Origin: a virus
Lineage: Duplodnaviria; Caudoviricetes
Length of the DNA: 25,634 bases
Direction: 5' to 3' (one strand)
IMG/VR virus record: IMGVR_UViG_3300008116_000483
Location: 1-25,634 of that record
The notes beneath the pieces are model-generated. The model was not told the DNA's origin and made no database searches. It saw only the letters and a list, made by a program, of their open reading frames with translations. A program made the translations under genes and the position numbers. Every line of letters begins with the position of its first letter. Position 1 is the first letter of the stretch. Positions 1-24,906 of this stretch are shown piece by piece.

Positions 1-438
1 TCTCCATTCTTTAACATAGGACTAAGTCTCAGTTTAGATAAAATTTCTACCCCAAACATAACTGTTGCTGAACCAACAGTTGTAGAAAAACAACAACCTG
101 CTGAAGTTACACCTATATCTAACGTTGAACAGATTTCTGTTGCATCTCCAACAGAAGCTGTTATAGGTACAAAAGCTAAAAGATCTGCTTCTAAAAAAAC
201 TCCAGCTACTCCAGTTACTGCAGATACTAAACTTGTAACTCCAGTTGAAACTATGTCAGATGAAGAAATTAAAATTTTTAAAAGTTTAAATAAGGATCTT
301 AAAGAATTCTTAGATAATGGTCTTGATTTTGAAGACTTTTTAGAAAGTTATTCGATAAAGATAGCAAAAGGTCGTAACTTGCAGGTTACAAATAAGTGGA
401 TTGCAGAAAAAACTAAAAAGTATTGTAGTAACTCTTAA
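1..438 (+). CDS. C-terminal 145 aa of a large protein, probably virion cargo; 5' end lies outside the window
   Basis: Frame 1 is open from base 1 (SPFFNIGLSLSLDKISTP...) through a Pro/Thr/Val/Ala-rich linker into the listed 253..438 ORF, ending KKYCSNS*. It sits directly upstream of the vRNAP gene. Confidence 0.8.
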   Translation, partial: SPFFNIGLSLSLDKISTPNITVAEPTVVEKQQPAEVTPISNVEQISVASPTEAVIGTKAKRSASKKTPATPVTADTKLVTPVETMSDEEIKIFKSLNKDLKEFLDNGLDFEDFLESYSIKIAKGRNLQVTNKWIAEKTKKYCSNS

Positions 439-450
439 AAACTGGTTAAT

Positions 451-3400
451 ATGAGAATTTCTTGTCCAAATCTATCCGACGAACAATACTTAAAGCTTGA
501 AAAATTATATGGAGCTACAAACGCAGTAGCTCTCTATATGCAATATGGTGCAGAAATACCTGCTCAGTTATATGAACTTGGGGGTGTACTTCCATCAAAT
601 ATGGAAGACATAAAAAGTGCATTTAGAACAAATGTAAATTTTAATGAGGTTATAGATATACCTAAAAGTTTATTCTTAGCAGCTTTAGATGGAGATGTTG
701 TCGAACCTGCAGTTTCAGAAGAAACTCAAGAGGTTACTGTTAAAGGGGGCGTAAATGAACTATTTGAATCTAATCCAGATTTAGCTGCTATTGGAACGGC
801 TGAAGAATATTCTCAATACTTGGATACTATATTTCCTGATAGTCAAGTAAAAGATATTGTTTATCATAATTCTCCTAATAAATTTGATAAGTTTGATAAT
901 TTAAAAGTAGGAACTACTACATCAGGAGTAGGGAGTGAAGATAGATTTTTAGGTATATTTTTTACTTCCGATAAAAATGCCTATGAAGGATTCAATATTA
1001 AAGGATTTCAATATCCTTCATTATTAAATTTAAAAAATCCTATAAATGGAGGAATAAATTATAATAATTTACCTAATTTAAAAACTGAAGAAGATTTTAA
1101 AAATTATCAAAAACAATTAATAAAAGATAAATATGATGGTATTCAATATGGTAAAGCTTTTATGGACATGGAAGATGGAAAATTTACTATTCCAATTTTA
1201 GAAGCAGTCGTATTTAAACCAGAACAAATCCATATACTAGGAACCAACCAAGATATAGAAGGATTTAAAAAGTGGAAAGAGCAAGAAGTTTCACAACCAT
1301 CTAAAAAAGAAATTAAAAAAGAAACATTAAATAAGCTGCAAAAGTCTTTAGGAAATTCTACTGAAAAGTCTGGATCAGTTTATGAAACAATAAAACAGTT
1401 AAGAGACTTTTTAGATACATATAGTAGAGGAGAAGATTTTAATATAGATCTTCCAATCGCAATAAATTTAGATGGAATATTTAATAGACCAGAACTAGAT
1501 GATGATCAATTTGATGATCATTTAAATGATATATATGACGTTTTAAATAGGTTAGAATCCAATTGGTTGGATTACAGAGGAGAAGTCACAGGAAAGATCT
1601 ATAAAGGATTTAGATCATATACAGTGCAGAGTTTGAGAGAGTTTGGATGGAGTATTGAAGATGCTTCAAATTTAGAAACAGTCCTTGCTGAGGAAGATTT
1701 AAACGAAGACGAGCCTCAAGGAGATGAGATTCCAGTATCTCAAAAAGATGATGTAGCTCTTGCAGAGAAGAATTATTCTATATCAAATTTTGAAATTGAT
1801 CCAGCAACTACTGTCTCTCAAGAAGTAAAGAGACTTCTGCAAGGTATTAAAGCTACAACTCCTGGGAGATATGGTTTTATACCACATATACCTGTATCTC
1901 GTATATATGGGAAGGCTATGAAATTAGTCTCAAACTTAAATACATATGAGGAAATGATAAGTGTTCTTGAGGCTAAAGCTAAAAAGGACAATGAGATAGC
2001 AATTTTAGTCAATTTTATTAAGAATGCAACTAGCGCTCAAAAAGCACAATTCTTCAAAGTACTTAGAAATGATAAGACTGACTTTTTTGTGTATGAGCAG
2101 GGAGGTAAGATTGTAGAAATTGAAGAAGAGTATAGTGAAGAAACTCAACAGATAGAGAAACTTAAAGATACTAAAAAAGAATATCAAAAATCTAGTAGCA
2201 TCATATCATTAACCTCGATAAACTCGGACACAATTTTAGTTAATAGATGGAAAAAGAATATGATGGGGGAATCAGCGTCAGTTGTAAATCCACATTTATA
2301 TTCAATTAAAACAGATTCTCAAGGGGATGAAGTAATTTCAATTAGACCTACAACTACAGACGGGAAGGATAGATTATCTTCAATACGGAATAACTATAAC
2401 GTAATTATTTCTGCAAAACTTAGAAATAATTTAGAAGAAAACATTGTAGCTATTGGGAATCTATTGTGGGATTTTGGGATTAATATGGGGAGTACAAGAG
2501 AAACTACTATTGACGCTGTTAGAGAATATGCTGATGGGAATATTAATACATTAAATAGACTCATTAATCCACTTAAAAAAGTGCTTGAAGGAGTTGTTGA
2601 AGTTGAAAGAAAAGGTGCTAATATAGTTGGGATAAAGAGTTTAAAATCAAAGATAACAACACCTGTATATTCTACTGCTGCTAAAAGTATTGGAGATATA
2701 GCTAGAGAATTATCTAAAGTATTTACAGAAGAGACAGCTACTTCTCAAATTAATGGAAAGGGTAATGCTTCATTTCCACATGGTAAACCTACGTTTATGA
2801 CTATGACCTTGAATGATATAAATTCAGGTACTAGTTCTAAACAATCTAATACATATTTAGAATTATCACAAGATATCTCTTTAAATCCATCTGAAGATCA
2901 TAGATTGCTGTTACTTAAACTTATTGAAGATGGAGTATATAAATTAAAAACTGACCAATTTAGTGCTTCTAGATATGAGGGAGATGATGTTAATGAGGCT
3001 AAAGATTATAGGGAACTAGGGGATAGAAATCTTTTAATTTTATTCTTAGATAATTATTTAAATACGGGGGGAGAGGATATGAGAATTCCAATTCCTACTC
3101 AGGAATCTAGAGAAAATCTTCCTTTTATGACTCTCCCAAGATTTTCTTCCAGTGCAACAGGGAAATCAGATCCTAGAATTAATAAAAGTGAAAGGGAGAT
3201 TATACAATCTATTATTATTAGAGACCTAGTTAGAATAAATAGAGACTCTAAAATATCTAATGGAATTAGTGACTATCATGGTACAAATAGAGTAAACTCT
3301 ATGACTCTCTCCGGAACATCTGATCTTAAATTAGAAGACGGAAATAACTTATCTAATGATATTTTAAATATGTTAGAGTACGGAAGAATTCAATACTCTA

Positions 3401-6400
3401 AAGAATGGGCTGCTCTAGATAGTCTTGTAGATAATTATTTAAATGTAACTCTTCAAGCAAAGATTGAGGAGTTTAAAGGAATTCTAAAATCTCTTAATAT
3501 TACTAAATCTAATTTAAATGCTGAGAACTACGATAAATTATTTAAAGATAATTTTGATGAGTTTATTCGTAGATATGTATTTGATACAATAGTATCCAAT
3601 ATTGAGTTAACAAACTTATTTAGAGGGAGTCAAACTTATTTTGGGAGTATTAATAAACTTTACAAGAGATGGGGATTTTTAAACACTCCAGGCTCTAATC
3701 TTTTTTTACAAGGCAGTGACCCAAATAACCCAGAATATGGGATGTTGAGAAAGTTCAATCAGGTTGCATTTAATGATTTATCTGCAGGTACTGATGAAAA
3801 TCAATTTAAAGTTCATGAAGCAATTGCTGATGCATACGAAAAAGTTTTATTAGACCAAGGACTGTCTCCAGAAAGAGCTAAAGCATTAGCAAGCTCATTT
3901 CGACCAGGAAAAGCTAAGGGTACAGATGCTCTTGCTCTTATTAGTCCAGAGATGTTTAGACATGTTATGCAGGGGGGAGGTGGCTCATTTGTATGGAATG
4001 AGGACCACGAAAAGATGTATAATAATTACAAAGAGACGGGAGAGTGGAAGTTTGATTTTACCCCAGGTTTTAAGTATGGTTATGACAGCACCGGAATTAA
4101 AAATATAGGAGGTCAGAATATATATGCATCTGAATTAGATAAAAACTCTTGGTTTGTACTTACACCAGAAGTAGCTAAAGGAAATCCAATTCTGGAAGAC
4201 ATGTTGTCTGCTATGAATGGGAAATATACTAATGGAGTTCCTATTCACATATTTAATGCAGTTAGTGCTAAGAAGGGTATATCAACAAATGTATTCAATA
4301 TTGATACAACTAAAACTGGAGAATTTTTTGAAGGTGTTCAATATAATGAACAAGATGCTAATAGGCTTGTAGAACCTCAAATATTGTCTGGTAATACTAA
4401 AGAATCCATCAGATTTAATAGCCAGATTAGAAGACACGCTGTCTTTAATTTGGAGATGGATGGATTATATAATATGTCTGGAGAGACTATATCGGGGGAG
4501 GATCTTTTTGGGATATACCAGAAGAGTATATATGCTAGACTAAATACCTCATTAAAAGAAGTAGCGGCGGAAGTTGGGTATTCAGAGTATCTAACAGCTA
4601 TGCAGAATAATGATCGAAAAGGTATGGGAGTTGCTAAAGCTAAAATGCTTAAAAAGATTGCAGAGCTTGCAATAGATTCTGCTAATAGAAATGGGAAACT
4701 AAATAATGATCTTGAAGAACAGCTTCGAATTAGACAAGTCATAGATGATTTTATAACAGACTTTGAAGTACCTGTAGGATTTCCCACAAATGAAAGAGAC
4801 TTAATGTCTCAATTTATTAGCATATTTAGAGCTAAAGCTGCTAAAGTACTTGTTCCAGGTATTGAAGCTGTTCAGGTTGGAACGTTGGGAAAAATGAATA
4901 TCAATGGTGAGTTGAGAGAACTTAAATTCTTTGATATTTCAAATAATGAGTGGTACGCTGAAGTTGCATTGTCTGAAGATATATTAGAGGCTTTGGGAAT
5001 AGAGATTGGGGATTCACTTGATTTGTCTGACCCAAAAATTCAAGATAAACTTATGATGCTTGGATATCGTATTCCACACCAGTCTCTTGCATCTAGTATA
5101 GTATTAAAAGCTGTAGCAGCTCTTCCTAAATCATACAAGAAGCATATTGTAGTTCCTGCAAACTTTGTTCAGGCTACAGGTTCCGACTTTGACTGGGATA
5201 AGCTGTACATAATTAGACATGATATAGATAAGAGTGGGGAAATAGCATTGCCCAGTGTTCCTCTTATGCAATTAGCTCAACAAAGCCCTGAGTATTTTAC
5301 AACTTTAGACCCTAAAATATTAAATAATTTAATACTTAGGGCTCAAATGGCAGTATCTCAATCTCCACAACATTTAGAAGAAATGTTAAGTGGGGTAGAG
5401 GCCGAAGAATATGCAGCTACAGCAGCTAGAATTGAAGATTTAAGGGGGAAAAGTGCTACAGACGAAGTATCTCTAGATGATCCCTCCATCAATATTAAGA
5501 TGTACAGAAAGTTTATGAGAGCTGCTGGACTTGTGGGGCAATATGCAAATATGGATGCTGGGTTGGGGGTAGCAGTGCATGGAAATCTTGGGGATAATGT
5601 AAGAGGTCTTGCTCTTAACCCAAATGCAACTGTTACGTGGATTGAGGGAGATATGGTATTTGAGTTAAATCAGATTAAAAATAGATCTGATGTAACGGGG
5701 TTAAGAATTAATTCATTCTTTACCAGTCACTTATCTGCAGCTCTTGACGTTGGGGGACAGGAAAATCCACTTCAAGATAGAACAAATGATAGTTCTGAAA
5801 CAGCAAAAGTATCTCTACATTTAGCATCTGTAGGAGTTCCACAATCTGGAGTTATTGCATTTAGAATGCAGCAACTTGTAGAAGATATGTTGAATCTTAT
5901 AAATAATGGAGATGGGACTAAATCATATACTCCATACGCAGCATTTACAAAAGTACTTATAGATAATGGGGTAGGAAAAAAATCTGCAAGTAAGTTTATG
6001 GGCTCAGCACTTTCTGGAAAAGTTCAAATGACTCCTATGAGTATGGGGTCTATTGAACTAAGCATGCTAGAGGATAAAAATAGCCCACTGAATATAGAAC
6101 TATTTAAGAACTTTATCATTTCCTACTATAGAGGAAAAGATCTTTATCAAGCTCTTAAAAAGATTACTCCAGATACTTTAGATGGGTTAAATGATCTTGG
6201 ACAGATGCAGGCTACTGTAGAAAGTGCTGAAAATGAATTATCTGCAGATCCTAATAAAGTTATAATAGCTTACGAAGATTTAAATCAATTTTTAGAAGGA
6301 GATAGATTCTTAGTATCGAAAGCTTTCCATGAATACTTTAAAGTAGTTTTTAATGCTGCAGGAGTAGTATTCCCATCTGCATCAGAGTCATTTGTAAAAT

Positions 6401-7527
6401 TTAAAGAGATTCTGAAAAATACTTTAGGATTAGAAAATCTTACTGGAGCACAGCATAGAAAGATTAATAGACTATTGCTTTATTGTATATTAACTAAACC
6501 TGGGAGTAGAGCAAATAATCTATTCTTAAGTTTTAGTCAAAAGACTAGTATTTCGTCTAAGTCACCTAGCGTATTAGTTAAGAAGCAGCAAGATAATATT
6601 TTTACTATGCTCAATACTATGATTAATAAGTATCCTCTTATGAGGAATGATGATTTATTAAGCAGTTTGGAGCTAGATGTAGCAGATAAAGATAAGAGGT
6701 TAATTAGAATGATTTTAAACTCTAAGGGTCGTATTACCTCAGATAGATTTAATGACTACAGAAGAACTATGGAAAGATTAGTATATGCTCCAGAAACATT
6801 TATTGGGCCTAATGCTACAGAGGAACAAAGAAAAGAAGTTGCAAATTTTGGACACTCTCTCATTCAGTATGCATTGATTTCATCTGCATTTTTACCTGGG
6901 GATAAAACTTTATATAAGTATATTCCCGGAAAGTATTTTCAAGATTTAGGGATATTTGATGAGTATAGAGCTGAGCTATCTCAAGTAATGTCTAATCCAG
7001 AATACTTTGAAAATTCTGAATTCGTTATGGAATTTATTAGAAACTTTGGATTATCTGCTGGTCTTGTTCAGAATAGAAAAGTATATTCAAAGTATGATTA
7101 CATCTCCAAGCAACAAGTTAAAATAACTATTGCAGGGAAGAAGCATACTGTTTTTAGTATTAAAGATCCAGATGCTCCTTTATTTGTTAAGTCTTACAGA
7201 AGTATCGATAAAAAGCAAGAAGGATTAGCTGATAGAACCATGCTTTATATGAAAGTTGGGAGAACTGAAACAGAATCTCAATACATTGCTGTAGTATCCA
7301 AAAGCTCAAGAAACAAATTTTATGAGATGAATATAAATTATCCTTCTACATTTACTGGAGGAAGTGCTATCTCTGGAAGGGGTCAGGAAAATAATTTTGC
7401 TGTTTCCAATATTACTTATGAACTTGGGGCACAGGTTGAGTCTATGATTAAGAGTTCTTCAATTCCTCAATTTTATAACAACATTCCTGAAACTGTAAAG
7501 AATTACGGGCAAGATTGTAGAGGTTAA
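451..7527 (+). CDS. Virion-packaged DNA-dependent RNA polymerase (crAss-like/phi14:2 gp66-type two-barrel RNAP) with N-terminal ART-like module
   Basis: 2358 aa. GYRIPHQ (nt ~5062) is followed by GSDFDWDKL (DxDxD at 5185-5199). Upstream KR...TPG (3664), TD (3922), KxSxFxLxP and SAxKG segments resemble crAss-like RNAP motifs. Confidence 0.88.
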   Translation: MRISCPNLSDEQYLKLEKLYGATNAVALYMQYGAEIPAQLYELGGVLPSNMEDIKSAFRTNVNFNEVIDIPKSLFLAALDGDVVEPAVSEETQEVTVKGGVNELFESNPDLAAIGTAEEYSQYLDTIFPDSQVKDIVYHNSPNKFDKFDNLKVGTTTSGVGSEDRFLGIFFTSDKNAYEGFNIKGFQYPSLLNLKNPINGGINYNNLPNLKTEEDFKNYQKQLIKDKYDGIQYGKAFMDMEDGKFTIPILEAVVFKPEQIHILGTNQDIEGFKKWKEQEVSQPSKKEIKKETLNKLQKSLGNSTEKSGSVYETIKQLRDFLDTYSRGEDFNIDLPIAINLDGIFNRPELDDDQFDDHLNDIYDVLNRLESNWLDYRGEVTGKIYKGFRSYTVQSLREFGWSIEDASNLETVLAEEDLNEDEPQGDEIPVSQKDDVALAEKNYSISNFEIDPATTVSQEVKRLLQGIKATTPGRYGFIPHIPVSRIYGKAMKLVSNLNTYEEMISVLEAKAKKDNEIAILVNFIKNATSAQKAQFFKVLRNDKTDFFVYEQGGKIVEIEEEYSEETQQIEKLKDTKKEYQKSSSIISLTSINSDTILVNRWKKNMMGESASVVNPHLYSIKTDSQGDEVISIRPTTTDGKDRLSSIRNNYNVIISAKLRNNLEENIVAIGNLLWDFGINMGSTRETTIDAVREYADGNINTLNRLINPLKKVLEGVVEVERKGANIVGIKSLKSKITTPVYSTAAKSIGDIARELSKVFTEETATSQINGKGNASFPHGKPTFMTMTLNDINSGTSSKQSNTYLELSQDISLNPSEDHRLLLLKLIEDGVYKLKTDQFSASRYEGDDVNEAKDYRELGDRNLLILFLDNYLNTGGEDMRIPIPTQESRENLPFMTLPRFSSSATGKSDPRINKSEREIIQSIIIRDLVRINRDSKISNGISDYHGTNRVNSMTLSGTSDLKLEDGNNLSNDILNMLEYGRIQYSKEWAALDSLVDNYLNVTLQAKIEEFKGILKSLNITKSNLNAENYDKLFKDNFDEFIRRYVFDTIVSNIELTNLFRGSQTYFGSINKLYKRWGFLNTPGSNLFLQGSDPNNPEYGMLRKFNQVAFNDLSAGTDENQFKVHEAIADAYEKVLLDQGLSPERAKALASSFRPGKAKGTDALALISPEMFRHVMQGGGGSFVWNEDHEKMYNNYKETGEWKFDFTPGFKYGYDSTGIKNIGGQNIYASELDKNSWFVLTPEVAKGNPILEDMLSAMNGKYTNGVPIHIFNAVSAKKGISTNVFNIDTTKTGEFFEGVQYNEQDANRLVEPQILSGNTKESIRFNSQIRRHAVFNLEMDGLYNMSGETISGEDLFGIYQKSIYARLNTSLKEVAAEVGYSEYLTAMQNNDRKGMGVAKAKMLKKIAELAIDSANRNGKLNNDLEEQLRIRQVIDDFITDFEVPVGFPTNERDLMSQFISIFRAKAAKVLVPGIEAVQVGTLGKMNINGELRELKFFDISNNEWYAEVALSEDILEALGIEIGDSLDLSDPKIQDKLMMLGYRIPHQSLASSIVLKAVAALPKSYKKHIVVPANFVQATGSDFDWDKLYIIRHDIDKSGEIALPSVPLMQLAQQSPEYFTTLDPKILNNLILRAQMAVSQSPQHLEEMLSGVEAEEYAATAARIEDLRGKSATDEVSLDDPSINIKMYRKFMRAAGLVGQYANMDAGLGVAVHGNLGDNVRGLALNPNATVTWIEGDMVFELNQIKNRSDVTGLRINSFFTSHLSAALDVGGQENPLQDRTNDSSETAKVSLHLASVGVPQSGVIAFRMQQLVEDMLNLINNGDGTKSYTPYAAFTKVLIDNGVGKKSASKFMGSALSGKVQMTPMSMGSIELSMLEDKNSPLNIELFKNFIISYYRGKDLYQALKKITPDTLDGLNDLGQMQATVESAENELSADPNKVIIAYEDLNQFLEGDRFLVSKAFHEYFKVVFNAAGVVFPSASESFVKFKEILKNTLGLENLTGAQHRKINRLLLYCILTKPGSRANNLFLSFSQKTSISSKSPSVLVKKQQDNIFTMLNTMINKYPLMRNDDLLSSLELDVADKDKRLIRMILNSKGRITSDRFNDYRRTMERLVYAPETFIGPNATEEQRKEVANFGHSLIQYALISSAFLPGDKTLYKYIPGKYFQDLGIFDEYRAELSQVMSNPEYFENSEFVMEFIRNFGLSAGLVQNRKVYSKYDYISKQQVKITIAGKKHTVFSIKDPDAPLFVKSYRSIDKKQEGLADRTMLYMKVGRTETESQYIAVVSKSSRNKFYEMNINYPSTFTGGSAISGRGQENNFAVSNITYELGAQVESMIKSSSIPQFYNNIPETVKNYGQDCRG
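742..1278 (+). other. ADP-ribosyltransferase-like domain (ART-PolyVal type) within the vRNAP
   Basis: VYH (862)...GIFFTS...LNLKNP...YDGI...EAVVFKPEQI pattern characteristic of ART domains in phage polyvalent proteins. Confidence 0.7.
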
Positions 7528-7561
7528 AGTATATTTACAAAATCTATAAATTAAAGAAAAA

Positions 7562-10500
7562 ATGGCTTGTGTATATACAGTTAATGGGGTAGGAGATTTG
7601 TTAGCAACATCTGTATTTCAATTAGTAGAGGATATTAATCCAGAATCCAGAACTCCAGAAATGATAGAAGATATATTATTATCTGAGAAGGTTATTATAG
7701 ATACTGCTGAAGGTAATAGAATTTTAAATCCCATAAATCAATCTGAAGCTCTCTCTAAAATAGATGATTTAAATACGATTGCAGTTAAAAACTTTAATAC
7801 TGATATAAATAATCCTCTTATTCGTACAATACGAATTGGGAAAAACTATAAAATATTAGTTGATTACAATGTTCTTAAGAGACTTAAGAAAATAGATCAA
7901 GATGTATACGATTTTACTACTAAGATAACTGAGCCTCAAGATGGGGAAACCGGAGAGTATTATACTGCAGAACAGATATATGCAGATTCCATTGAAAGTA
8001 AGTCTGAAGAAATTGAAAGTATAAGAGAAGATGGGAAAGCTTTAACTGAATTACTTATACAGAAATTAGAGGGAGAGATTAGAAGATTACAAGAATCTGC
8101 AGTTAAAGCTGGAAAAAGAAGAAGTGATCAAGTATCTCTGAAGCAGAAAGAAATACAAGCCATTATTAATAAGATTAAGAAATCTCATCAAAATATTGAA
8201 GATCTCTATACAATAGTGCATTATCTACATGATATGTCTGTCAAAGCTGAATCTCAAATGAAGGCTATTGAAGATATATATGAGAAACAAAATGCTCTTG
8301 GAAGAGTAGATAACGCCGCAAGAGAAGCATTACTTCGCAAGGTTTCAGAACTTAAGCAAACTATAGATGCTTTCTATTCAAATAATACTTCTAGATCTGC
8401 TATTACACTGTTAGGAACTCAAGTAACTAGAATTCTTAGTGCGGGTATGACAAATCGTACTGCAGCTGCACAAGATCTACTAGAGTATATCAATAACGCA
8501 GAGGCGAGAATGAGAAATATTGATTCAAAATTTTTAGACAGTGTACTTCCAATACACGTAGATTATTTACTTGAGTATGCCCCAATTGATATCAACACGC
8601 AGTTGAATGCTAAGATTACTAGAATAAAAGAAAATAAAGTATTAGTAGATTTTAATAGATTTGATGTTAGATATTTAAAGGCAAGGGCTCAAGGATTTGA
8701 GGCAATGCTTGAACTTAATATAAAGCAACTTCAAGATAAGATGATTGGGAGAGAGGCTATTCTCTCTGAGTTAAAATCTACACATAGAGAGGCTGGGTTC
8801 TTCTCCACATGGTTAGATCCAATTGTATACAATAGAAAAACTTCTATTCAATTATTTGCAAACGCTGTTAAAGGCAAACTGTTTGAAGCATATCAATCTA
8901 CGATTGATACTAAATATGAATTAGCTCCTGCTTATAGAAAGTTTGTAGATTACAAGGGGGTTGGGGAAGATAATGTTGAAAAGCTCTATGAAGATATAAT
9001 TGAAGAAATTTCCATATCTACTAGAGGAAAAGATGGGGAAAGAAAGATTCAAAAGGTTATGGCATTTGTTCAAAGATATAATGTAACTAAGTTTAATGAG
9101 AATCTAACTAGTATATATAATACTCTTAAAGAGCAATTTAACTTCCCCAAAGATGCAGATCCAATTGATAAAGATAAATGGTTTAAATCTCCTGAGGGAA
9201 TAGATTATCAAAATGCTATAGATAGATGGTGGAAAGAGAATACAGTCCCTACTGAAAATGCAGAAGAAGAACTTGCTATTCTAGTAAATGCTAGATTAGC
9301 AGTAGGAGATGAGATTGCAAATTTTCAAGGATCAGAATCTGACTTAGCTAGTTTGTATAGAAAAGCATACACACTTGAGGCAGAAATGAGAAGTGTGTAT
9401 AGTAATAACACATTTAAGGGAAGACTTGCAGTTCCTAATAATTCTTACATCAATGAGAAATTTACTCAGATGCCTGCAGAAGCTAGAGAATATTATGATC
9501 TGTTATTAGAGACATATAAAAATGATCAGTTAGATAAGATTGGGGGTACATATCAATACAAGAACTCTTGGGATAATTTTTCATATTTACTTCCCTCAAT
9601 TGGTATTTCCGCTGCAGAAAAATTATATAGCGGAAATGGGGTAATATCTTCTGCTAAAAGACTTGTAGCTGATGGGGCTACTTTCCAAGAAACAGATACT
9701 GAATTCGGGGAATTAGTTTCATTAAACGGAGAAAAATTAAAGCTCATTCCTCTTCATTTTGCTGGAACAATGAGTTCTAATCTAGTATCTAAAGATGTGA
9801 CTAATAGTATCATTAAGTTTAATGATATGGCTAATAGATTTAAGAGTAAATCTGAAATCAATGGGGTAGTTAATATTATGAGATCAGCTCTTGAGAATAG
9901 GAAAAGAACAGTTATGCTTCCTACAGGAGATTTTGCTACAGAATACTATGCTGAAAAACATGGAATTAAAAAGCTTTATGAAAATATAAATACTCAAGCA
10001 GGATTATCCGGAGATTTAATACAATTAAATGAGTGGTTGGAAAGTATATTTTATGATAAACAATCTGCAGAACAATTTAAAGATGGATTATCTACAACTA
10101 AGATAACTTCTGCCTTGACTAGTTTTACAGCTATTGGAGCTTTAGGTCTTAATGTTCCTCAAGCTTTCAATCAGTATATAATGGATAATGTAGTAGCAAC
10201 TCAAGAAGCAGTATCTGGGGGATATTTTACTGCTGCAAGTCTTGGGAAAGCAAAGCTATATATGGGTAATTCTATTGGGAATTTGATGGAATCTGCATCT
10301 GGGAAGATGACTAAGTCAAATAAAATTGGGGGATTCTTAGAATTAGTTAACGCTTTCCAAGAAGGTTCACAGTCATTTGAAAATTTAACAGGGAGTGCTG
10401 CTAAAAAAGCATCAAGTGTTAATAGTTTGACGTTTATGCAAAAAGCTGCAGATATAAGTATGATGGGGGAGAAGGTATTAGCTATGGCCTTTGAGTATGA

Positions 10501-11377
10501 GGGTAAACTCTTGGATGCTAATGGGAATGTTATAAAAAATAAAGCTGGGGAGGATGCCGACTTGTATGATATGATAATACAAGATTCTAAGGGCAAGTGG
10601 ATCGTTGACCCACAGGTAGCTAATTTCAGCTTACCAAAATTTGTTGCAAAAGTGTCTGCTATGTCTAAGTCACTTAACCAATTAAGAGGAAGTGTTGATG
10701 TTGTAGCAGCTCAACGTAGAAGTATACCTAGGCTTATGCTTCTCTTTAGAAGTTATTTTGTCCCAGGTCTACGTAGAAGATTTGGGTACCTCGATGGGGC
10801 ACATATTGATGTAGAAAGTGGGGAGCTTACAAATGGGTATTATAATACATTTTTTGGGGCATTGATGAACTTATATTATACAAAGAGTTTATCGAAAACA
10901 TACACGAATCTTACTCCATCAGAAAGAAAGAATATGCATAGAGCCCTAATGGAGTTTACATTTGTAATACTCGCAGGGATAGTAGCTAGTACAGTTAGGG
11001 GAATGTTTGATGATGACGATGAGAAAAACCCATATTGGGCTGGATTTGTGATGTATCAAGCTCTAAGACTTAATACAGAATTATCTTCATTCCTTGACCC
11101 ATTAGAGTTTATTAGGATGGCTCAAAGTCCTACAGCTACATTTACTCCTGTTAAAAATGCATTTGAATTACTTGGAACTACAACAAATACAATAGGATAT
11201 GGTGTTGGATTTCCAGGTATAGACGAGAAAGATGTTTTTTATCAAAGACAATCTGGAATTTATGAAAAGGGAGATTTAAAGATTACAAAAGAACTTACAG
11301 ATGTTCTCCCATTATTTTCAGGTGTTTCTAAATCTTTAGATCCTGAAAGAATAGCTAAATTCTATGAAGATAATTAA
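7562..11377 (+). CDS. Giant virion cargo/ejection protein, helical, with C-terminal hydrophobic segments
   Basis: 1271 aa, last gene of the + strand block after the vRNAP. Coiled-coil-like N-terminal part and hydrophobic stretch ALMEFTFVILAGIVASTV. Function inferred from position and size. Confidence 0.65.
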   Translation: MACVYTVNGVGDLLATSVFQLVEDINPESRTPEMIEDILLSEKVIIDTAEGNRILNPINQSEALSKIDDLNTIAVKNFNTDINNPLIRTIRIGKNYKILVDYNVLKRLKKIDQDVYDFTTKITEPQDGETGEYYTAEQIYADSIESKSEEIESIREDGKALTELLIQKLEGEIRRLQESAVKAGKRRSDQVSLKQKEIQAIINKIKKSHQNIEDLYTIVHYLHDMSVKAESQMKAIEDIYEKQNALGRVDNAAREALLRKVSELKQTIDAFYSNNTSRSAITLLGTQVTRILSAGMTNRTAAAQDLLEYINNAEARMRNIDSKFLDSVLPIHVDYLLEYAPIDINTQLNAKITRIKENKVLVDFNRFDVRYLKARAQGFEAMLELNIKQLQDKMIGREAILSELKSTHREAGFFSTWLDPIVYNRKTSIQLFANAVKGKLFEAYQSTIDTKYELAPAYRKFVDYKGVGEDNVEKLYEDIIEEISISTRGKDGERKIQKVMAFVQRYNVTKFNENLTSIYNTLKEQFNFPKDADPIDKDKWFKSPEGIDYQNAIDRWWKENTVPTENAEEELAILVNARLAVGDEIANFQGSESDLASLYRKAYTLEAEMRSVYSNNTFKGRLAVPNNSYINEKFTQMPAEAREYYDLLLETYKNDQLDKIGGTYQYKNSWDNFSYLLPSIGISAAEKLYSGNGVISSAKRLVADGATFQETDTEFGELVSLNGEKLKLIPLHFAGTMSSNLVSKDVTNSIIKFNDMANRFKSKSEINGVVNIMRSALENRKRTVMLPTGDFATEYYAEKHGIKKLYENINTQAGLSGDLIQLNEWLESIFYDKQSAEQFKDGLSTTKITSALTSFTAIGALGLNVPQAFNQYIMDNVVATQEAVSGGYFTAASLGKAKLYMGNSIGNLMESASGKMTKSNKIGGFLELVNAFQEGSQSFENLTGSAAKKASSVNSLTFMQKAADISMMGEKVLAMAFEYEGKLLDANGNVIKNKAGEDADLYDMIIQDSKGKWIVDPQVANFSLPKFVAKVSAMSKSLNQLRGSVDVVAAQRRSIPRLMLLFRSYFVPGLRRRFGYLDGAHIDVESGELTNGYYNTFFGALMNLYYTKSLSKTYTNLTPSERKNMHRALMEFTFVILAGIVASTVRGMFDDDDEKNPYWAGFVMYQALRLNTELSSFLDPLEFIRMAQSPTATFTPVKNAFELLGTTTNTIGYGVGFPGIDEKDVFYQRQSGIYEKGDLKITKELTDVLPLFSGVSKSLDPERIAKFYEDN

Positions 11378-11385
11378 TGAAATAT

Positions 11386-11450
11386 AAAAAAGCTTAGTCC
11401 CCTTTTACAGGGACTAAGCCTTTCTTATAGGGGACTATGTCCCCTTTTTT
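11386..11450. terminator. Tandem hairpins forming a bidirectional intrinsic terminator between the convergent blocks
   Basis: AAAAAA-GCTTAGTCCC(11392-11401)-8 nt loop-GGGACTAAGC(11410-11419), then AGGGGAC(11429-11435)-TAT-GTCCCCT(11439-11445)-TTTTT. Confidence 0.85.
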
Positions 11451-14098: not shown

Positions 14099-15343
14099 TT
14101 ACACTCCAAGATCATTATCCTCGTCGTAATCATCATCGTCATACATATCATCCCAATCATCCTCTAACTCGGATTTTAGATCAGAAAGATTCTGTGTAAG
14201 AGCATTCCCAAGAGTATTGTTAAGTTCAATAACAACATCCTTGCGCATCATATCCCACTCTAAGTCTGTTTTAGCAGCATAGGTAGAAGAATGATAGATA
14301 CTCCCATTGACTCCGGCAAGACTAGAATGTACAAAATACTGAAGGCAACGAATAGCTCCGTTATCATGATCAGGAATAGCCCCGATATGCATAGGATCTA
14401 CAAACACATTGTGAATCTCTCCCTGATATCCATTGATATAGTAGAGACCCCCAACATGCAATCCAGGAACACAAGATCTTGTATCATCTGTGTTTACTTT
14501 ATCCCAAGAATCGAGATAGTGAACACATCCAACCTTGATAAAGTGCCCAGGATCTGCAAATCCGTTATTCCCTTCGCATGCAAAAGCATCTCCTCTATTC
14601 CCCATAACAGCGGGCTCAAAGAGTCGATCTTCTACAAACTCAGGTAATCCTTCAGATTTAATTTTCCCTGTGTTTACATCGAAAGTTCTAGTGTATCTAG
14701 GAACTTTCTCCCCAGTTTCCTCATCATACTTATGCATGATTTCTCTGGAGACTTTGTACCCATTGAGCAATCCCTCTTTCGTGATCTTGATCTGATAGAT
14801 AGTTGCTCTACGTTCAGCGATATCTTCACTAAGACCATGAGCTGACATTAGTTCTTCTTTCAACTCGGGGTGAACATATTTCATGTTCACAAAGTTGAAG
14901 AACCTATCTGAGAAATCCTTCCCAGTCCCATTCTTCATCTTAGCTGCAAGAACAGGATTCCGTAACCATCTCATCCATAATTTGATGAGAGGCATGAAAT
15001 CCACATCTGCATCCATAGACTCGTAGATACGATCTACAAGGGCTTTGGGCATAGGAATTTTAGATAGCTGTCCTTCATAGTTTAAGAAGAACTGCCCAGT
15101 TACATTGTTTACACTGATGTAAGGGCACTTAGATTGCACAATTTTAGCATAATCCTTAGCTGGGTTTAAGATAGCCATAAGTCTATCTACATGTGCATCA
15201 TACTCTTCTTTTGTGTTAGAAGTGTTAGCTAAGTCTGCAATGGTATTAATCTCATTGTAGAGACTTGAAGAATACTCAACCATGAATGGTTTTTCCCCAA
15301 TAGAACCTACAATGCACCCATTGATTAGATTGATGTTAATCAT
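14099..15343 (-). CDS. rIIB-like protein
   Basis: GYKV...SCVPGLHVG...VFVDPMHIGAIPD...RCLQY resembles the rIIB C-terminal core. Coupled to an rIIA-like gene; acidic tail. Confidence 0.75.
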   Translation of the reverse strand: MININLINGCIVGSIGEKPFMVEYSSSLYNEINTIADLANTSNTKEEYDAHVDRLMAILNPAKDYAKIVQSKCPYISVNNVTGQFFLNYEGQLSKIPMPKALVDRIYESMDADVDFMPLIKLWMRWLRNPVLAAKMKNGTGKDFSDRFFNFVNMKYVHPELKEELMSAHGLSEDIAERRATIYQIKITKEGLLNGYKVSREIMHKYDEETGEKVPRYTRTFDVNTGKIKSEGLPEFVEDRLFEPAVMGNRGDAFACEGNNGFADPGHFIKVGCVHYLDSWDKVNTDDTRSCVPGLHVGGLYYINGYQGEIHNVFVDPMHIGAIPDHDNGAIRCLQYFVHSSLAGVNGSIYHSSTYAAKTDLEWDMMRKDVVIELNNTLGNALTQNLSDLKSELEDDWDDMYDDDDYDEDNDLGV

Positions 15344-18014
15344 CGTTAGAGATTTTTAAGATGTCTTTAATAATAGCAACTGCAGAGGGGAGACAGGCCG
15401 GAATCTGCATATCTAATTTACCCCTTACTTTTAGATATGCTTCCATTTCATTTATAAACTCAGTAGTATCAGTCTCTCTAGAATTTTCATAAATGTTATC
15501 TAACAATATTGACACTGTTTCTGTAAATTCTTTCACAAAGGTATTGATTTCCAGGATATCATCGTAGAAAACATCAATATCTTTTATATCCAAATGAAAT
15601 AGTTCTCTTAGCTTTTCTGCAATTAAATCATCTCTATTAACATCATTTAAGACCTTCAATTTATACTTAGAAAATCTAACTATATTTTTCCATAGTTCAC
15701 ATTCGTGGTAGTTATCTATTAGTATATCATCAATATAGTCATTCATAGCAGATATTACAAAGGCAACATCTTTAAATTCTGGGTTTATATCTTTTATGTA
15801 ATTAAACCAATGTTTTAGTCTTGGGACTTCTTGATTGGTTATAATCAATTTTAAGAAAGGATTTAGACTTAATGTCCCATCCCCATTATCTTCCCAGAAT
15901 AGATGCGATATGTGCTTAATATTAGGATTTAAGTCTAGAAGTTCTTCTGTTTTTTCACTTACTTGAATCAACTGAACTCTAAAATCAGGGTTTGATAATC
16001 TCCTTTTAATTACTTTAGTATCTGGGAAATGCTGGAATCTAGTTGGGAGTTTATCCCAGTAATATGAGTTATCCTGATACCAATTCCATCTATTATGTTC
16101 GTATTTATAACTAAATACTTTGAATAGATAGAATGCTGCTACAAGCTCTTGATGATCTTCCTTTGTACAATAGTATGTTGGGGTTTGTGAAGATAGCAAT
16201 AAACTTGTTTTAGGCTCAACTTTGTCAAGTACAATCTCAGTACGAGTTCTACGTGCATCTTCTCGCAGTGTGTGTATTACACTATTCCCTTCTAGTTTCC
16301 TACGTTCTGCAGGAGACATATCCCTAAATGACTTCGTTACATCCTCAAGATTTATTGGGGGTTTGAAGTCTTCAGGAATCTCTACATCATCATAGGACTT
16401 ATAGTATTTAGACTTCTTAATAAAGTCAAGTACTATTTGTTCCTCAGCTCTAGCTTTAATAAATAATGCATTCCCTTTAACTTCATCACTAATCCCATTC
16501 AGCTTAGAAGTATTCTCTCTTAAGATATAGATAGCAGCATTGTCTATATTTTCACTCTGAGACAATAAGTAATAGTCTTTTACCTGGCTTCTACGATCGT
16601 CTAATACATAGAAATTATTTAGATCTATAAGACTCCACTGAAATACATCTGATAGTTGAAGACCAACTCCTCTAACATTGACTTTATATACGCTGTAATA
16701 AGGCAATGCACTTGATAAAGTCTTGTAAACTATAGAGTTATTAAGACTAAATCTTGGAGTTATCTTCTCTAAACTTAAGAATCTGGCAAGTTTCCCAACT
16801 AATAAAATAGACTTTGACTCATCATTGTTCCCAGTTATTGTGGGATTAACAATGATAGAGCACTTCTTTGTCCACTCTAAGAAATCAGTCTCAGACTGCA
16901 GCTCAGTATCAATAAGACCTGCAATCTCATCATGAGCTTTATCTATCAGTTCTTCAATATATCTCTTGGTCTTGTCATTCCAAATAACTTTCTCACGGCT
17001 TGGGGTAACTTCAACCCCATCTTGAATAACATGCTCTACTCTGTCAGAGTCAATATAAGATTGTCGTATGGGGCACTTTAAACCAACAGCCCCAAACAAT
17101 TGCTCCATCTCTAACTCTCTAAACTCTATGTGTCCGTAGTTTATCCCAGTGTTTGCTTCTGGGGATTTTACAATGACAATATGAGGTTTAGAGTAATACC
17201 CTCCATCAGATACTATAATGTTTGAAGAAGTGTCTTCTTCTTTGTAGAAAAATCTTAGTCCGGGAATGTACATCAATTGATCTTCAACGGCTTCACTAAA
17301 CTTATATCTATTGTGTCTCTTTACCCCAAAAGATATCTTAGTGTAGTTCTTCCCTGAATAGTTCTTGTAATAAGCAATATTATCATCGTTTAGACGTATC
17401 TCCCCATCTGATTCCCATTTAGAAATCATGAAGACAGTCTTGTAAGGGAAGCACTGAAACTTTACATACTTCCCATTGTATGCACTCTCTACGACGTAGA
17501 AATCTACCCCAGTAGACAATGCAACCTTGCTTCCTAAACCGAAAGCTCCAAAGTTCTCAGAGGTATTACGCTTTGTAGAATATCCAAGCTCGGACATTCC
17601 AATAAGGCGGTTACCCCCAACTCCAACACCGTAATCTTTGACTGAGAATTCATCGCAGAAACCTATCCCCTCGTTCTCAATATATGTTAGTTCAACATCA
17701 TTGTTTTCTAAATCCAGGTAATTGAGATCATAATATGATTTGTCAAAGTTTGAATCCTTATACTGCTCATCATCTCTTTGAATATAGTAATCCTCTATAG
17801 ATTTATTCCCTGTAAGAATATCCACTGCAATTTCTTTCTCCCTCTGTGCATCTAGTGCATTTGTAGCTAATTCTCTTACGGTAGAGGAGATGGGGGTAGA
17901 ATACTGAGTAGCCTGCAGAATATCAAATACTAGACGTTCTGCGCCTTTGTTTATCTTTTTCTCTATTCCTATAGAGTTAGAAGTAACATTACTCCCAATT
18001 GTTTTTATGCTCAT
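15336..18014 (-). CDS. rIIA-like protein with N-terminal GHKL (HATPase) domain
   Basis: VRELATNALDA, VKDYGVG, YSTKR, GAFGLGSK GHKL motifs and later TPSRE; immediately upstream of the rIIB-like gene. Confidence 0.8.
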   Translation of the reverse strand: MSIKTIGSNVTSNSIGIEKKINKGAERLVFDILQATQYSTPISSTVRELATNALDAQREKEIAVDILTGNKSIEDYYIQRDDEQYKDSNFDKSYYDLNYLDLENNDVELTYIENEGIGFCDEFSVKDYGVGVGGNRLIGMSELGYSTKRNTSENFGAFGLGSKVALSTGVDFYVVESAYNGKYVKFQCFPYKTVFMISKWESDGEIRLNDDNIAYYKNYSGKNYTKISFGVKRHNRYKFSEAVEDQLMYIPGLRFFYKEEDTSSNIIVSDGGYYSKPHIVIVKSPEANTGINYGHIEFRELEMEQLFGAVGLKCPIRQSYIDSDRVEHVIQDGVEVTPSREKVIWNDKTKRYIEELIDKAHDEIAGLIDTELQSETDFLEWTKKCSIIVNPTITGNNDESKSILLVGKLARFLSLEKITPRFSLNNSIVYKTLSSALPYYSVYKVNVRGVGLQLSDVFQWSLIDLNNFYVLDDRRSQVKDYYLLSQSENIDNAAIYILRENTSKLNGISDEVKGNALFIKARAEEQIVLDFIKKSKYYKSYDDVEIPEDFKPPINLEDVTKSFRDMSPAERRKLEGNSVIHTLREDARRTRTEIVLDKVEPKTSLLLSSQTPTYYCTKEDHQELVAAFYLFKVFSYKYEHNRWNWYQDNSYYWDKLPTRFQHFPDTKVIKRRLSNPDFRVQLIQVSEKTEELLDLNPNIKHISHLFWEDNGDGTLSLNPFLKLIITNQEVPRLKHWFNYIKDINPEFKDVAFVISAMNDYIDDILIDNYHECELWKNIVRFSKYKLKVLNDVNRDDLIAEKLRELFHLDIKDIDVFYDDILEINTFVKEFTETVSILLDNIYENSRETDTTEFINEMEAYLKVRGKLDMQIPACLPSAVAIIKDILKISNDD

Positions 18015-24249: not shown

Positions 24250-24524
24250 TAATCATCATCTTTATAATCTTCCCAATCATCAAATTCCCTTTGTTTCTCT
24301 TCATGTTCTAAGATTTGTTTGTAAAATAAATCAAATACTGGTCTGGCAAGTAATCCGATTATATCCCATTGAGATATATTCCCTTTTTCATCGCATAAAT
24401 AGACCTCATGGATGTTAATTTGATCCGGTTCTGACGGCTCTTTATAACTCCATGTTTTTCCTGGGATAAATTCATACTCCACTATGAAAGGAATATCCCA
24501 AATCTCTACGGCAAGTGTGGGCAC
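24249..24524 (-). CDS. Hypothetical acidic protein (GTG start)
   Basis: 91-aa ORF coupled to the helicase by a TAATG overlap. Confidence 0.6.
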   Translation of the reverse strand: MPTLAVEIWDIPFIVEYEFIPGKTWSYKEPSEPDQINIHEVYLCDEKGNISQWDIIGLLARPVFDLFYKQILEHEEKQREFDDWEDYKDDD

Positions 24525-24906
24525 GGTAAGTGTGTTTTAATTGTTCTTCGACAAGTTCAATAGCCTTCTCATACTTAACCTTGAATGGGGGATATACTTT
24601 TAGTAAGTCCTCCGCTTGGTTATAGCTATGAAGGATTGTAGCATGATGTCTCTTCCCGAGATGCTTTGATATCTCTGTGTACGTTACTTTGAGTCTATCT
24701 CTGATAATTTTGATGGCTGCATGTCTTGCAAGGGCGACTCTGCTTGACCTGTTTTTACTGTAGATAGCCTCATATTGTACACCAAAAGCTTCTCCTGTAC
24801 ATCTAACAATCCCTTCAATTGTATTAACATCAGGGGTGTAATATTTAATGGCATAGGGTCTAATGAGATTAGGTAGGCCTAAATAAATCCAAGGGCTAAT
24901 ATTCAT
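24472..24906 (-). CDS. Stand-alone DnaA C-terminal (domain IV) HTH protein
   Basis: SKNRSSRVALARHAA...TYTEISKHLGKRHHATILHS matches the DnaA domain IV pattern (R...V..ARQ.AMY...SL.EIG..FG.RDH.TV.HA). Confidence 0.8.
   Translation of the reverse strand: MNISPWIYLGLPNLIRPYAIKYYTPDVNTIEGIVRCTGEAFGVQYEAIYSKNRSSRVALARHAAIKIIRDRLKVTYTEISKHLGKRHHATILHSYNQAEDLLKVYPPFKVKYEKAIELVEEQLKHTYRAHTCRRDLGYSFHSGV

What the first reader, a model, noticed from the sequence alone, without database searches (positions are those of the whole stretch)
424..7570. Terminal-cysteine 'daisy chain' across three consecutive giant virion proteins
Seen: by my count the ~3770 visible residues of the three + strand proteins hold only 5 Cys, and 4 lie within 5 residues of a terminus that faces the neighbouring gene. 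Protein 1 ends KKYCSNS* (TGT 424). The vRNAP starts MRISCP (463) and ends GQDCRG* (7516). Protein 3 starts MACV (7568), its only Cys. The last protein of the block has no C-terminal Cys, as expected for a chain end. The only exception is one internal vRNAP Cys (6484). The - strand enzymes use Cys freely. Known: crAss-like phages package giant proteins including the vRNAP and deliver them into the host. Inference: the proteins are joined C-to-N in gene order by disulfides (or shared metal sites). This would give a redox-releasable 'pseudo-polyprotein' fixing packaging stoichiometry and ejection order, which falls apart in the reducing cytoplasm. I am not aware of a description of this, but cannot check the literature.
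Basis: partly seen in the sequence, partly recalled or inferred. Interest (0 to 1): 0.85.

Follow-up and report, generated by a model that had tools for sequence, protein, structure and literature searches.

The report
Terminal cysteines chain crassvirus cargo proteins
Three giant proteins that this crAss-like phage likely packs and injects, with its RNA polymerase in the middle, carry a cysteine at each end that meets the next protein, and relatives keep such a pair where the genes are separate and lack it where they are fused, which points to likely but unshown head-to-tail disulfide bonds that would tie the proteins into one thread.

Summary
Observation confirmed: 5 Cys in 3774 residues, 4 at junction-facing ends. 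The genes are the Crassvirales cargo block: A (gp47/gp67-like), B (vRNAP), C (gp49/gp65-like). Across 174 loci in 72 clusters, 149 of 153 junction-facing ends carry a terminal Cys, against 0 of 106 outer ends. Fused junctions lack the Cys pair and show no copy of the N-terminal cap; six of eight triple fusions have no Cys at all. Split and fused states change at least six times per junction on the vRNAP tree. The rule follows domain order A-B-C, not gene adjacency. There is no metal motif. The same signature (sole Cys at facing ends) marks the one such bond seen by cryo-EM, cyanophage A4 gp27 Cys1715-gp26 Cys5, between unrelated proteins. Best reading: docking caps locked by head-to-tail disulfides (about 0.75). 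The bond, its timing and its role in ejection are not shown for any crassvirus, and complex folding was unavailable. I found no description in print. This scan noted the same pattern before on other genomes.

The parts
1..438 (+). C-terminal end of cargo protein A (gp47/gp67-like), cut by the contig start; ends ...KKYCSNS
   Evidence: L028 extension matches a profile of 22 A proteins at E 8.8e-18; W50, E53, C59 invariant in 4 aligned tails
424..426 (+). C-terminal Cys of A (junction 1, tail side)
   Evidence: present in 25 of 26 clusters
451..7527 (+). Cargo protein B, virion RNA polymerase, 2358 aa
   Evidence: tblastn to Crassvirales RNAP genes at 20-29% identity; core profile hits PDB 6VR4 (phi14:2 gp66) at E 3.4e-31
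451..630 (+). N-terminal cap of B (C-P-N, then a predicted helical hairpin), with Cys5 at 463-465; likely docking module of junction 1
   Evidence: alignment A4: C5, A25, P37 invariant in 14 sequences; AlphaFold2 helices 11-20 and 22-32, mean pLDDT 67, about 80 in the hairpin; docking role inferred
856..1233 (+). ART-PolyVal-like (ADP-ribosyltransferase) insert in B, residues 136-261
   Evidence: Pfam PF18760, E 3.3e-6, 28.3 bits, below the 31.2 cut-off
5185..5199 (+). DFDWD catalytic motif of the vRNAP (residues 1579-1583)
   Evidence: invariant in alignment A2
6484..6486 (+). The one internal Cys (2012), not conserved
7516..7518 (+). C-terminal Cys2356 of B (junction 2, tail side)
   Evidence: invariant in A2; 50 of 51 clusters
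7562..11377 (+). Cargo protein C (gp49/gp65-like), 1271 aa; Cys3 (7568-7570) is its only Cys; no C-terminal Cys
   Evidence: tblastn to crAss001 and phi14:2 g065; 13 of 14 homologues have Cys3 as sole Cys, the 14th lacks the N-terminal part; 47 of 47 clusters
11386..11445 (.). Terminator-like hairpins on both strands closing the cargo block
   Evidence: consensus scan; not tested further

Best explanation
The three genes encode this phage's relatives of the crassvirus cargo proteins (A, the RNA polymerase B, and C), and the single cysteines at their meeting ends likely form two head-to-tail disulfide bonds, A to B and B to C, that would stand in for the peptide bonds of the fused polyprotein found in other crassviruses. 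Shown: the pattern, its pairing by junction, its loss on fusion, and the absence of a metal motif. Inferred steps: (1) the tail of the upstream protein docks non-covalently on a short N-terminal cap of the next one; the two caps of this phage are unrelated, which would keep the order specific. (2) The pre-docked cysteines oxidise in the particle, probably after lysis. (3) During infection the cargo is threaded, partly unfolded, through the tail; docking contacts would be lost, so the covalent links would keep A-B-C as one thread in fixed order and ratio. Purging of all other cysteines avoids mispairing in the periplasm. (4) Cytoplasmic reduction could then free the polymerase, but this step may be dispensable.
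For: 149 of 153 junction-facing ends versus 0 of 106 outer ends and 0 of 41 ends of the preceding cargo gene. Background is 0.52 internal Cys per 1000 aa. At least 6 split/fused changes per junction on a 56-taxon tree. Fully fused proteins: 6 of 8 have 0 Cys, the others 1 and 3. No internal copy of either cap in 225 long proteins. phi14:2 gp67/gp66/gp65 have 4 Cys in 5398 aa, all at junction ends. An intron break inside a vRNAP has no Cys (L024), while breaks beside GIY-YIG genes in L143 have Cys at both ends. Precedent: A4 gp27 Cys1715-gp26 Cys5 disulfide in cryo-EM (PMC12002296); these are the sole Cys of both proteins and the pair is kept in 4 of 4 relatives fetched. crAss001 virions contain other inter-subunit disulfides (PMC10172136).
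Against: No bond has been seen in a crassvirus: gp47/gp49/gp50 are unresolved in the crAss001 map, and gp66 was crystallised alone with reductant, a few terminal residues untraced. A4 gp26/gp27 show no homology to A, B or C, so the precedent is an analogy. Several named gut crassviruses carry internal Cys in the cargo (up to 3 per 1000 aa), which weakens strict exclusion. Three of 82 junction C-ends in the second set lack a Cys in the last 10 residues and stay unexplained (P0115, P0137, P0170). Two loci have the Cys 22-24 residues from the end (L056, L059). Clusters are related, so the counts overstate independence; about 12 events is the fairer number.
Confidence: 0.75

Rival explanations
1. 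The two cysteines of a junction share a metal ion (a zinc clasp) instead of a disulfide.
For: It would also need one Cys from each partner and could form in the reducing cytoplasm during packaging (inference).
Against: 0 of 71 junctions have a second Cys within 6 residues on either side; His lies within 6 residues in only 3 of 71 N-ends and 7 of 71 C-ends. No invariant His in either cap alignment. A Cys4 site built from two chains is not excluded.
Confidence: 0.07
2. The terminal cysteines bond to something else (capsid, portal or tail proteins, a lipid, or the same end of another copy) rather than to each other.
For: crAss001 has many inter-subunit disulfides in its tail; no structure shows the partners.
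Against: Fusion removes exactly the two Cys of the fused junction and leaves the other pair. The outer ends, equally available as anchors, have 0 of 106.
Confidence: 0.06
3. The junction is a non-covalent docking pair; the Cys are conserved contact residues or a redox switch and a disulfide is incidental.
For: Caps are present only in split forms, and assembly takes place in a reducing cytoplasm (general knowledge).
Against: Cys is the only residue common to unrelated caps and to tails that share nothing else, in proteins otherwise purged of Cys. A packing role would tolerate Ala, Ser or Val.
Confidence: 0.08
4. The cysteines drive a peptide ligation or thioester chemistry (split-intein-like or transpeptidation) that makes a true polyprotein.
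For: It would also explain equivalence with gene fusion.
Against: The N-side Cys sits at position 3-6, never first, and the C-side Cys 0-4 residues from the end (69 of 71), with no shared flanking motif. No intein-type Pfam hit on the block.
Confidence: 0.04

Closest known systems
Cyanopodophage A4 (Anabaena phage A-4L, Saffermanviridae) pre-ejectosome pair gp27-gp26, disulfide Cys1715-Cys5 (PMC12002296)
   Same: Giant ejection proteins whose only Cys lie at the facing C- and N-termini of neighbouring genes; a C-terminal helix docks on the partner and is locked by the disulfide; pair kept in 4 of 4 relatives.
   Different: No detectable homology to A, B or C; one link, not a chain of three; no vRNAP reported among them; in the passages and Discussion read, the paper treats it as a stabilising contact and states no rule about fusion or conservation.
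Crassvirales vRNAP cargo block: phi14:2 gp67-gp66-gp65, crAss001 gp47-gp50-gp49, and the fused polyproteins
   Same: Homologous proteins in the same order; the same terminal Cys are present in these model phages.
   Different: The preprint notes fusion into a polyprotein but has 0 hits for 'cys' or 'disulf'; the crAss001 structure paper reports disulfides only in tail and vertex proteins.
Schitoviridae (N4, DEV) ejection proteins
   Same: Ejected giant proteins purged of cysteine, attributed to passage through the periplasm (PMC11445570).
   Different: No cysteine at all and a single-chain vRNAP of another polymerase family; no terminal pairs.
Docking (COM) domains of polyketide and non-ribosomal peptide assembly lines (recalled, not from a call)
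   Same: Short terminal modules that order separate polypeptides and vanish on fusion.
   Different: Non-covalent, cytoplasmic, no cysteine lock; no sequence relation was tested.

Membership tests
Crassvirales vRNAP cargo block | Giant protein with DFDxD motif related to phi14:2 gp66 | tested here: met
   DFDWD 1579-1583; profile hit to 6VR4 at E 3.4e-31; direct phmmer of the protein found no PDB hit
Crassvirales vRNAP cargo block | gp49/gp65-like partner after the vRNAP | tested here: met
   tblastn E 1e-22 to crAss001 and 6e-11 to phi14:2 g065
Crassvirales vRNAP cargo block | gp47/gp67-like partner before the vRNAP | tested here: met
   via near-identical contig L028, E 8.8e-18 against the A profile, with high composition bias
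Crassvirales vRNAP cargo block | Crassvirus capsid, portal and terminase genes in the same genome | not testable with these tools
   the held genome is only this 25.6 kb contig, and these genes are not in it
Crassvirales vRNAP cargo block | Proteins present in the virion | not testable with these tools
   inferred from orthologues found by mass spectrometry in crAss001 and phi14:2 (annotation)
A4-type terminal disulfide between ejection proteins | Sole Cys at facing C- and N-termini | tested here: met
A4-type terminal disulfide between ejection proteins | Homology to A4 gp26/gp27 | tested here: not met
   no hit to profiles A, B or C (best E 0.15)
A4-type terminal disulfide between ejection proteins | S-S bond observed | not testable with these tools
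   needs virion biochemistry or a structure
Inter-protein zinc clasp | Further Cys or His ligands near each Cys | tested here: not met
Split intein / ligation | Cys at position 1 of a fragment, conserved flanks, intein domain | tested here: not met

The most novel reading that the evidence does not exclude
A cap-plus-cysteine pair is a portable, self-locking coupling that podoviruses use as a stand-in for a peptide bond: wherever the ejection polyprotein gene is broken a new pair appears, the whole vRNAP cargo is pulled through the tail as one disulfide-linked thread of about 5500 residues, and extra effector modules can be spliced into the thread (as the 345-aa ART-bearing link of L143 suggests). 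It arose at least twice (Crassvirales and Saffermanviridae).
Probability: 0.45. Interest if true: 0.9.

Novelty: new variant of a known kind. Interest (0 to 1): 0.78.

Why it matters
How crassviruses pack several megadaltons of cargo and eject it in order is stated as open in the crAss001 structure paper and in a 2026 N4 paper. This rule names four residues per phage that would set order and ratio, explains why split and fused versions of the block are interchangeable, and can be tested with one non-reducing gel on phi14:2 or crAss001. If true it also gives a simple sequence signature for ordering ejection proteins in unannotated phages.

Tried and rejected
Complex folding of the A tail with the B cap was not available, so docking is untested by modelling. 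Folding of the C cap and fold searches of the B cap could not be run. The ESM Atlas search of the B cap gave only an unnamed 59-aa cluster at 0.90 with no family: uninformative. Profile comparison of the two caps found no relation (probability 0.2%). A single-sequence scan of viral contigs found nothing. A contig scan with the cap alignment was impossible (too little conservation). Pfam and PHROGs name neither cap nor protein C, and C has no PDB relative. The IQ-TREE run did not finish; FastTree was used. p-crAssphage could not be fetched under the accession tried, so it is not in the counts. The Nature version of the gp66 paper is not held. The crAss001 paper ran reduced and non-reduced virion samples, but the table contents and one scanned supplement were unreadable; they may bear on the claim, as may the closed bioRxiv supplements. 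Rejected: chance; an effect of gene adjacency such as overlap or translational coupling (L001, L016, L056 keep the Cys without adjacency); lipid or prenyl motifs (no signal peptide or lipobox seen by eye in the aligned ends, not run as a test; CaaX-type chemistry is eukaryotic, general knowledge).

Full report
Observation. The + strand holds three ORFs: a 5'-open 145-aa end (1-438), a 2358-aa protein (451-7527) and a 1271-aa protein (7562-11377). Together they have 5 Cys in 3774 residues, at nt 424, 463, 6484, 7516 and 7568; the 17 - strand genes have 55 in 4518. Four of the five lie within five residues of an end that faces a neighbour. The held genome is only this contig. A near-identical contig, L028, extends protein 1 to 816 residues with no further Cys.

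Identity. Protein 2 hits Crassvirales RNA polymerase genes at 20-29% identity (95 records) and has DFDWD at 1579-1583. A profile of its core finds phi14:2 gp66 (PDB 6VR4) at E 3.4e-31, although the single sequence found no PDB hit. Protein 3 hits crAss001 'RNA-polymerase subunit' and phi14:2 g065. Protein 1, through L028, matches a profile of gp47/gp67-like proteins (E 8.8e-18). I call them A, B and C. Capsid genes and host are not visible.

Named phages. crAss001: gp47 has one Cys, 2 residues from its end; gp50 has Cys5, one internal Cys and Cys2404 of 2412; gp49 has only Cys5. phi14:2: gp67 has only Cys1797 (its last residue), gp66 only Cys3 and Cys2179, gp65 only Cys3. Four Suoliviridae records fuse A and B: no N-terminal Cys, a Cys 3 from the end, and C starts with Cys at 3-6. 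Three Intestiviridae records fuse B and C: A ends in Cys, BC has Met-Ser-Cys at or shortly after the annotated start and no terminal Cys at its end.

Survey. I pooled the window and 177 loci. Four had no motif-bearing ORF under my pattern and were left out (L010, L014, L022, L024). The other 174 form 72 clusters at 70% identity of the vRNAP core. Ends were classed by domain content, not by Cys, and scored by majority per cluster (first 8 residues from the first ATG, or last 10). Junction-facing ends: A tail 25 of 26, B head 27 of 29, B tail 50 of 51, C head 47 of 47, in total 149 of 153. Outer ends: 0 of 45 heads, 0 of 61 tails. The end of the cargo gene before A: 0 of 41. At 50% clustering the figures are 103 of 107 and 0 of 78. 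The four misses have the Cys after a later ATG (L003, L047) or 22-24 residues from the end (L056, L059). Architectures: 22 clusters A|B|C, 20 AB|C, 7 A|BC, 7 ABC, 16 partial. Caveats: the inverted A genes of L001 and L016 were added by hand; L050, L056, L080, L083, L099 and L114 carry broken frames that look like frameshifts; the counted B end of L114 is such a break, though the piece after it also ends in Cys. Control: among 73 opposite-strand ORFs of 300 aa or more, 3 have an N-terminal and 8 a C-terminal Cys, and that set can include the two inverted A genes. Internal Cys in the cargo average 0.52 per 1000 aa; 33 of 72 cluster representatives have none, and the highest is 3.2.

Second set. 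A profile search of 50%-identity representatives found 2417 proteins and listed 150; the 129 of at least 1500 aa were classed the same way. Junction heads 51 of 56, junction tails 79 of 82, outer heads 2 of 61, outer tails 0 of 40; 12 heads and 7 tails could not be classed. The two outer heads with Cys have no A domain and were misclassed by my length threshold. The five heads without Cys align to internal parts of longer relatives and look truncated. Three tails (P0115, P0137, P0170) remain unexplained. This set overlaps the first and is not independent.

Independence. On a FastTree of 56 cluster representatives, A/B changes between split and fused at least 6 times and B/C at least 6 times, so about 12 events underlie the counts. 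Fully fused proteins of about 5500 aa have 0 Cys in 6 of 8 sequences (one of them 5'-incomplete), 1 and 3 in the others. In 20 BC-fused proteins, 17 have no Cys between the end of the B match and the start of the C match, and three have 1-2 within spans of 800-1400 aa. Neither cap profile has an internal match among 225 long proteins.

Natural experiments. (i) In crAss001 and cr106_1 the A gene is on the opposite strand after C, and in L056 an AdoMet decarboxylase gene and another gene separate B from C; the Cys remain. The rule is domain order, not gene adjacency. (ii) In L024 the vRNAP is interrupted by a LAGLIDADG ORF flanked by group I intron pieces (E 2e-10 and 5.5e-6, below the gathering score), and that break has no Cys. 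(iii) In L143, B is followed by a 92-aa and a 345-aa ORF, each followed by an overlapping GIY-YIG gene; both have Cys at both ends, and the longer has an ART-PolyVal domain. No Rfam intron reached threshold there. This is one locus only. (iv) Lbo-JY46, a cyanophage, has an A-like protein ending in Cys and a C-containing protein with Cys4, with no DFDxD motif in either.

Anatomy. In 71 junctions the N-side Cys is at position 3-6 and the C-side Cys 0-4 from the end in 69. None has a second Cys within 6 residues; His is that close in 3 and 7 cases. In the 16 three-way-split loci with both junctions, the two caps fell in the same profile only once (L114), and in four neither was assigned.

Literature. 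PMC12002296 (passages and Discussion) shows by cryo-EM that the C-terminal helix of A4 gp27 inserts into gp26 and is locked by Cys1715-Cys5. The lead came from earlier scan notes. I checked that these are the only Cys in 1717 and 1114 residues and that four relatives keep the pair (one has two extra internal Cys). The A4 proteins match none of my profiles. PMC10172136 (passages, methods section, supplement search): cargo gp47/49/50 detected but unresolved, partial unfolding proposed, disulfides reported for tail and vertex proteins only. bioRxiv 10.1101/2020.03.07.982082 (passages and one section): notes fusion into a polyprotein; no mention of cysteine. PMC11445570 (passages): Schitoviridae ejection proteins lack Cys. 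PMC13434306 (passages): crassvirus ejection called unresolved. Nine searches found no description of the terminal pairs in crassviruses; the library lacks most subscription papers, and I did not read the comparative genomics papers on crAss-like phages.

Mechanism. Shown: pairing by junction, loss on fusion, no metal motif. Inferred: docking of tail on cap, oxidation in the particle, a covalent thread during unfolded passage through the tail, optional reduction in the host. I put the head-to-tail disulfide at 0.75; non-covalent docking only 0.08, metal bridge 0.07, other partners 0.06, ligation 0.04. The functional claim (order of ejection) is less certain than the bond.

Verdict. It is a new variant of a known kind: one such bond is published for an unrelated phage, but I did not find the chain rule or its equivalence with fusion in print. 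Eight earlier notes of this scan describe the same pattern on other genomes; they are unchecked AI notes and are not counted as evidence. My reading was recorded before I saw them. Interest 0.78.

Noticed in passing
L143:7356-9949: After the vRNAP come a 92-aa and a 345-aa ORF (the latter with ART-PolyVal and a weak GNAT match), each with Cys at both ends and each followed by an overlapping GIY-YIG endonuclease gene; may be newly split links or plug-in effectors.
   Followed up: partly
window 856-1233: ART-PolyVal-like insert near the vRNAP N-terminus, absent from the Pfam column of the closest homologues, which are about 200 aa shorter.
   Followed up: partly
L022 (Leptolyngbya phage Lbo-JY46) 8432-21338: Cyanophage with A-like and C-like cargo proteins and a terminal Cys pair but no DFDxD motif in either.
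   Followed up: partly
L126:14306-14797 and L074 from about 5690: A ferritin-like gene sits between B and C in L126; an ORF of similar look follows B in L074.
   Followed up: partly
L016, L027, L003, L047, L069 versus L004-L039 and L101-L123: Internal Cys are nearly absent in the window's wider clade but reach 1.4-3.2 per 1000 aa in several other lineages, including named human-gut crassviruses; may track oxygen exposure.
   Followed up: no
L002 6567-8240, L003 5274-6080, L022 2335-4359, L020 2172-4211: Some C1-like cargo genes upstream of the block have a Cys near one end (for example a Cys-Gly-Gly motif close to the C-terminus); not part of the A-B-C rule.
   Followed up: no
window 15336-18014 (-): 892-aa protein with a weak HATPase_c_3 match, followed by a 414-aa gene; the 892-aa gene lies near the cargo block in most close relatives. 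Possibly an rIIA/rIIB-like pair (recalled, untested).
   Followed up: no
window 24472-24906 (-): Small protein with a DnaA C-terminal helix-turn-helix domain (E 1.3e-15).
   Followed up: no
L024:638-930 and 14209-15089: Two group I introns in bajarodcaudo virus 1, one within the vRNAP gene with a LAGLIDADG ORF.
   Followed up: partly
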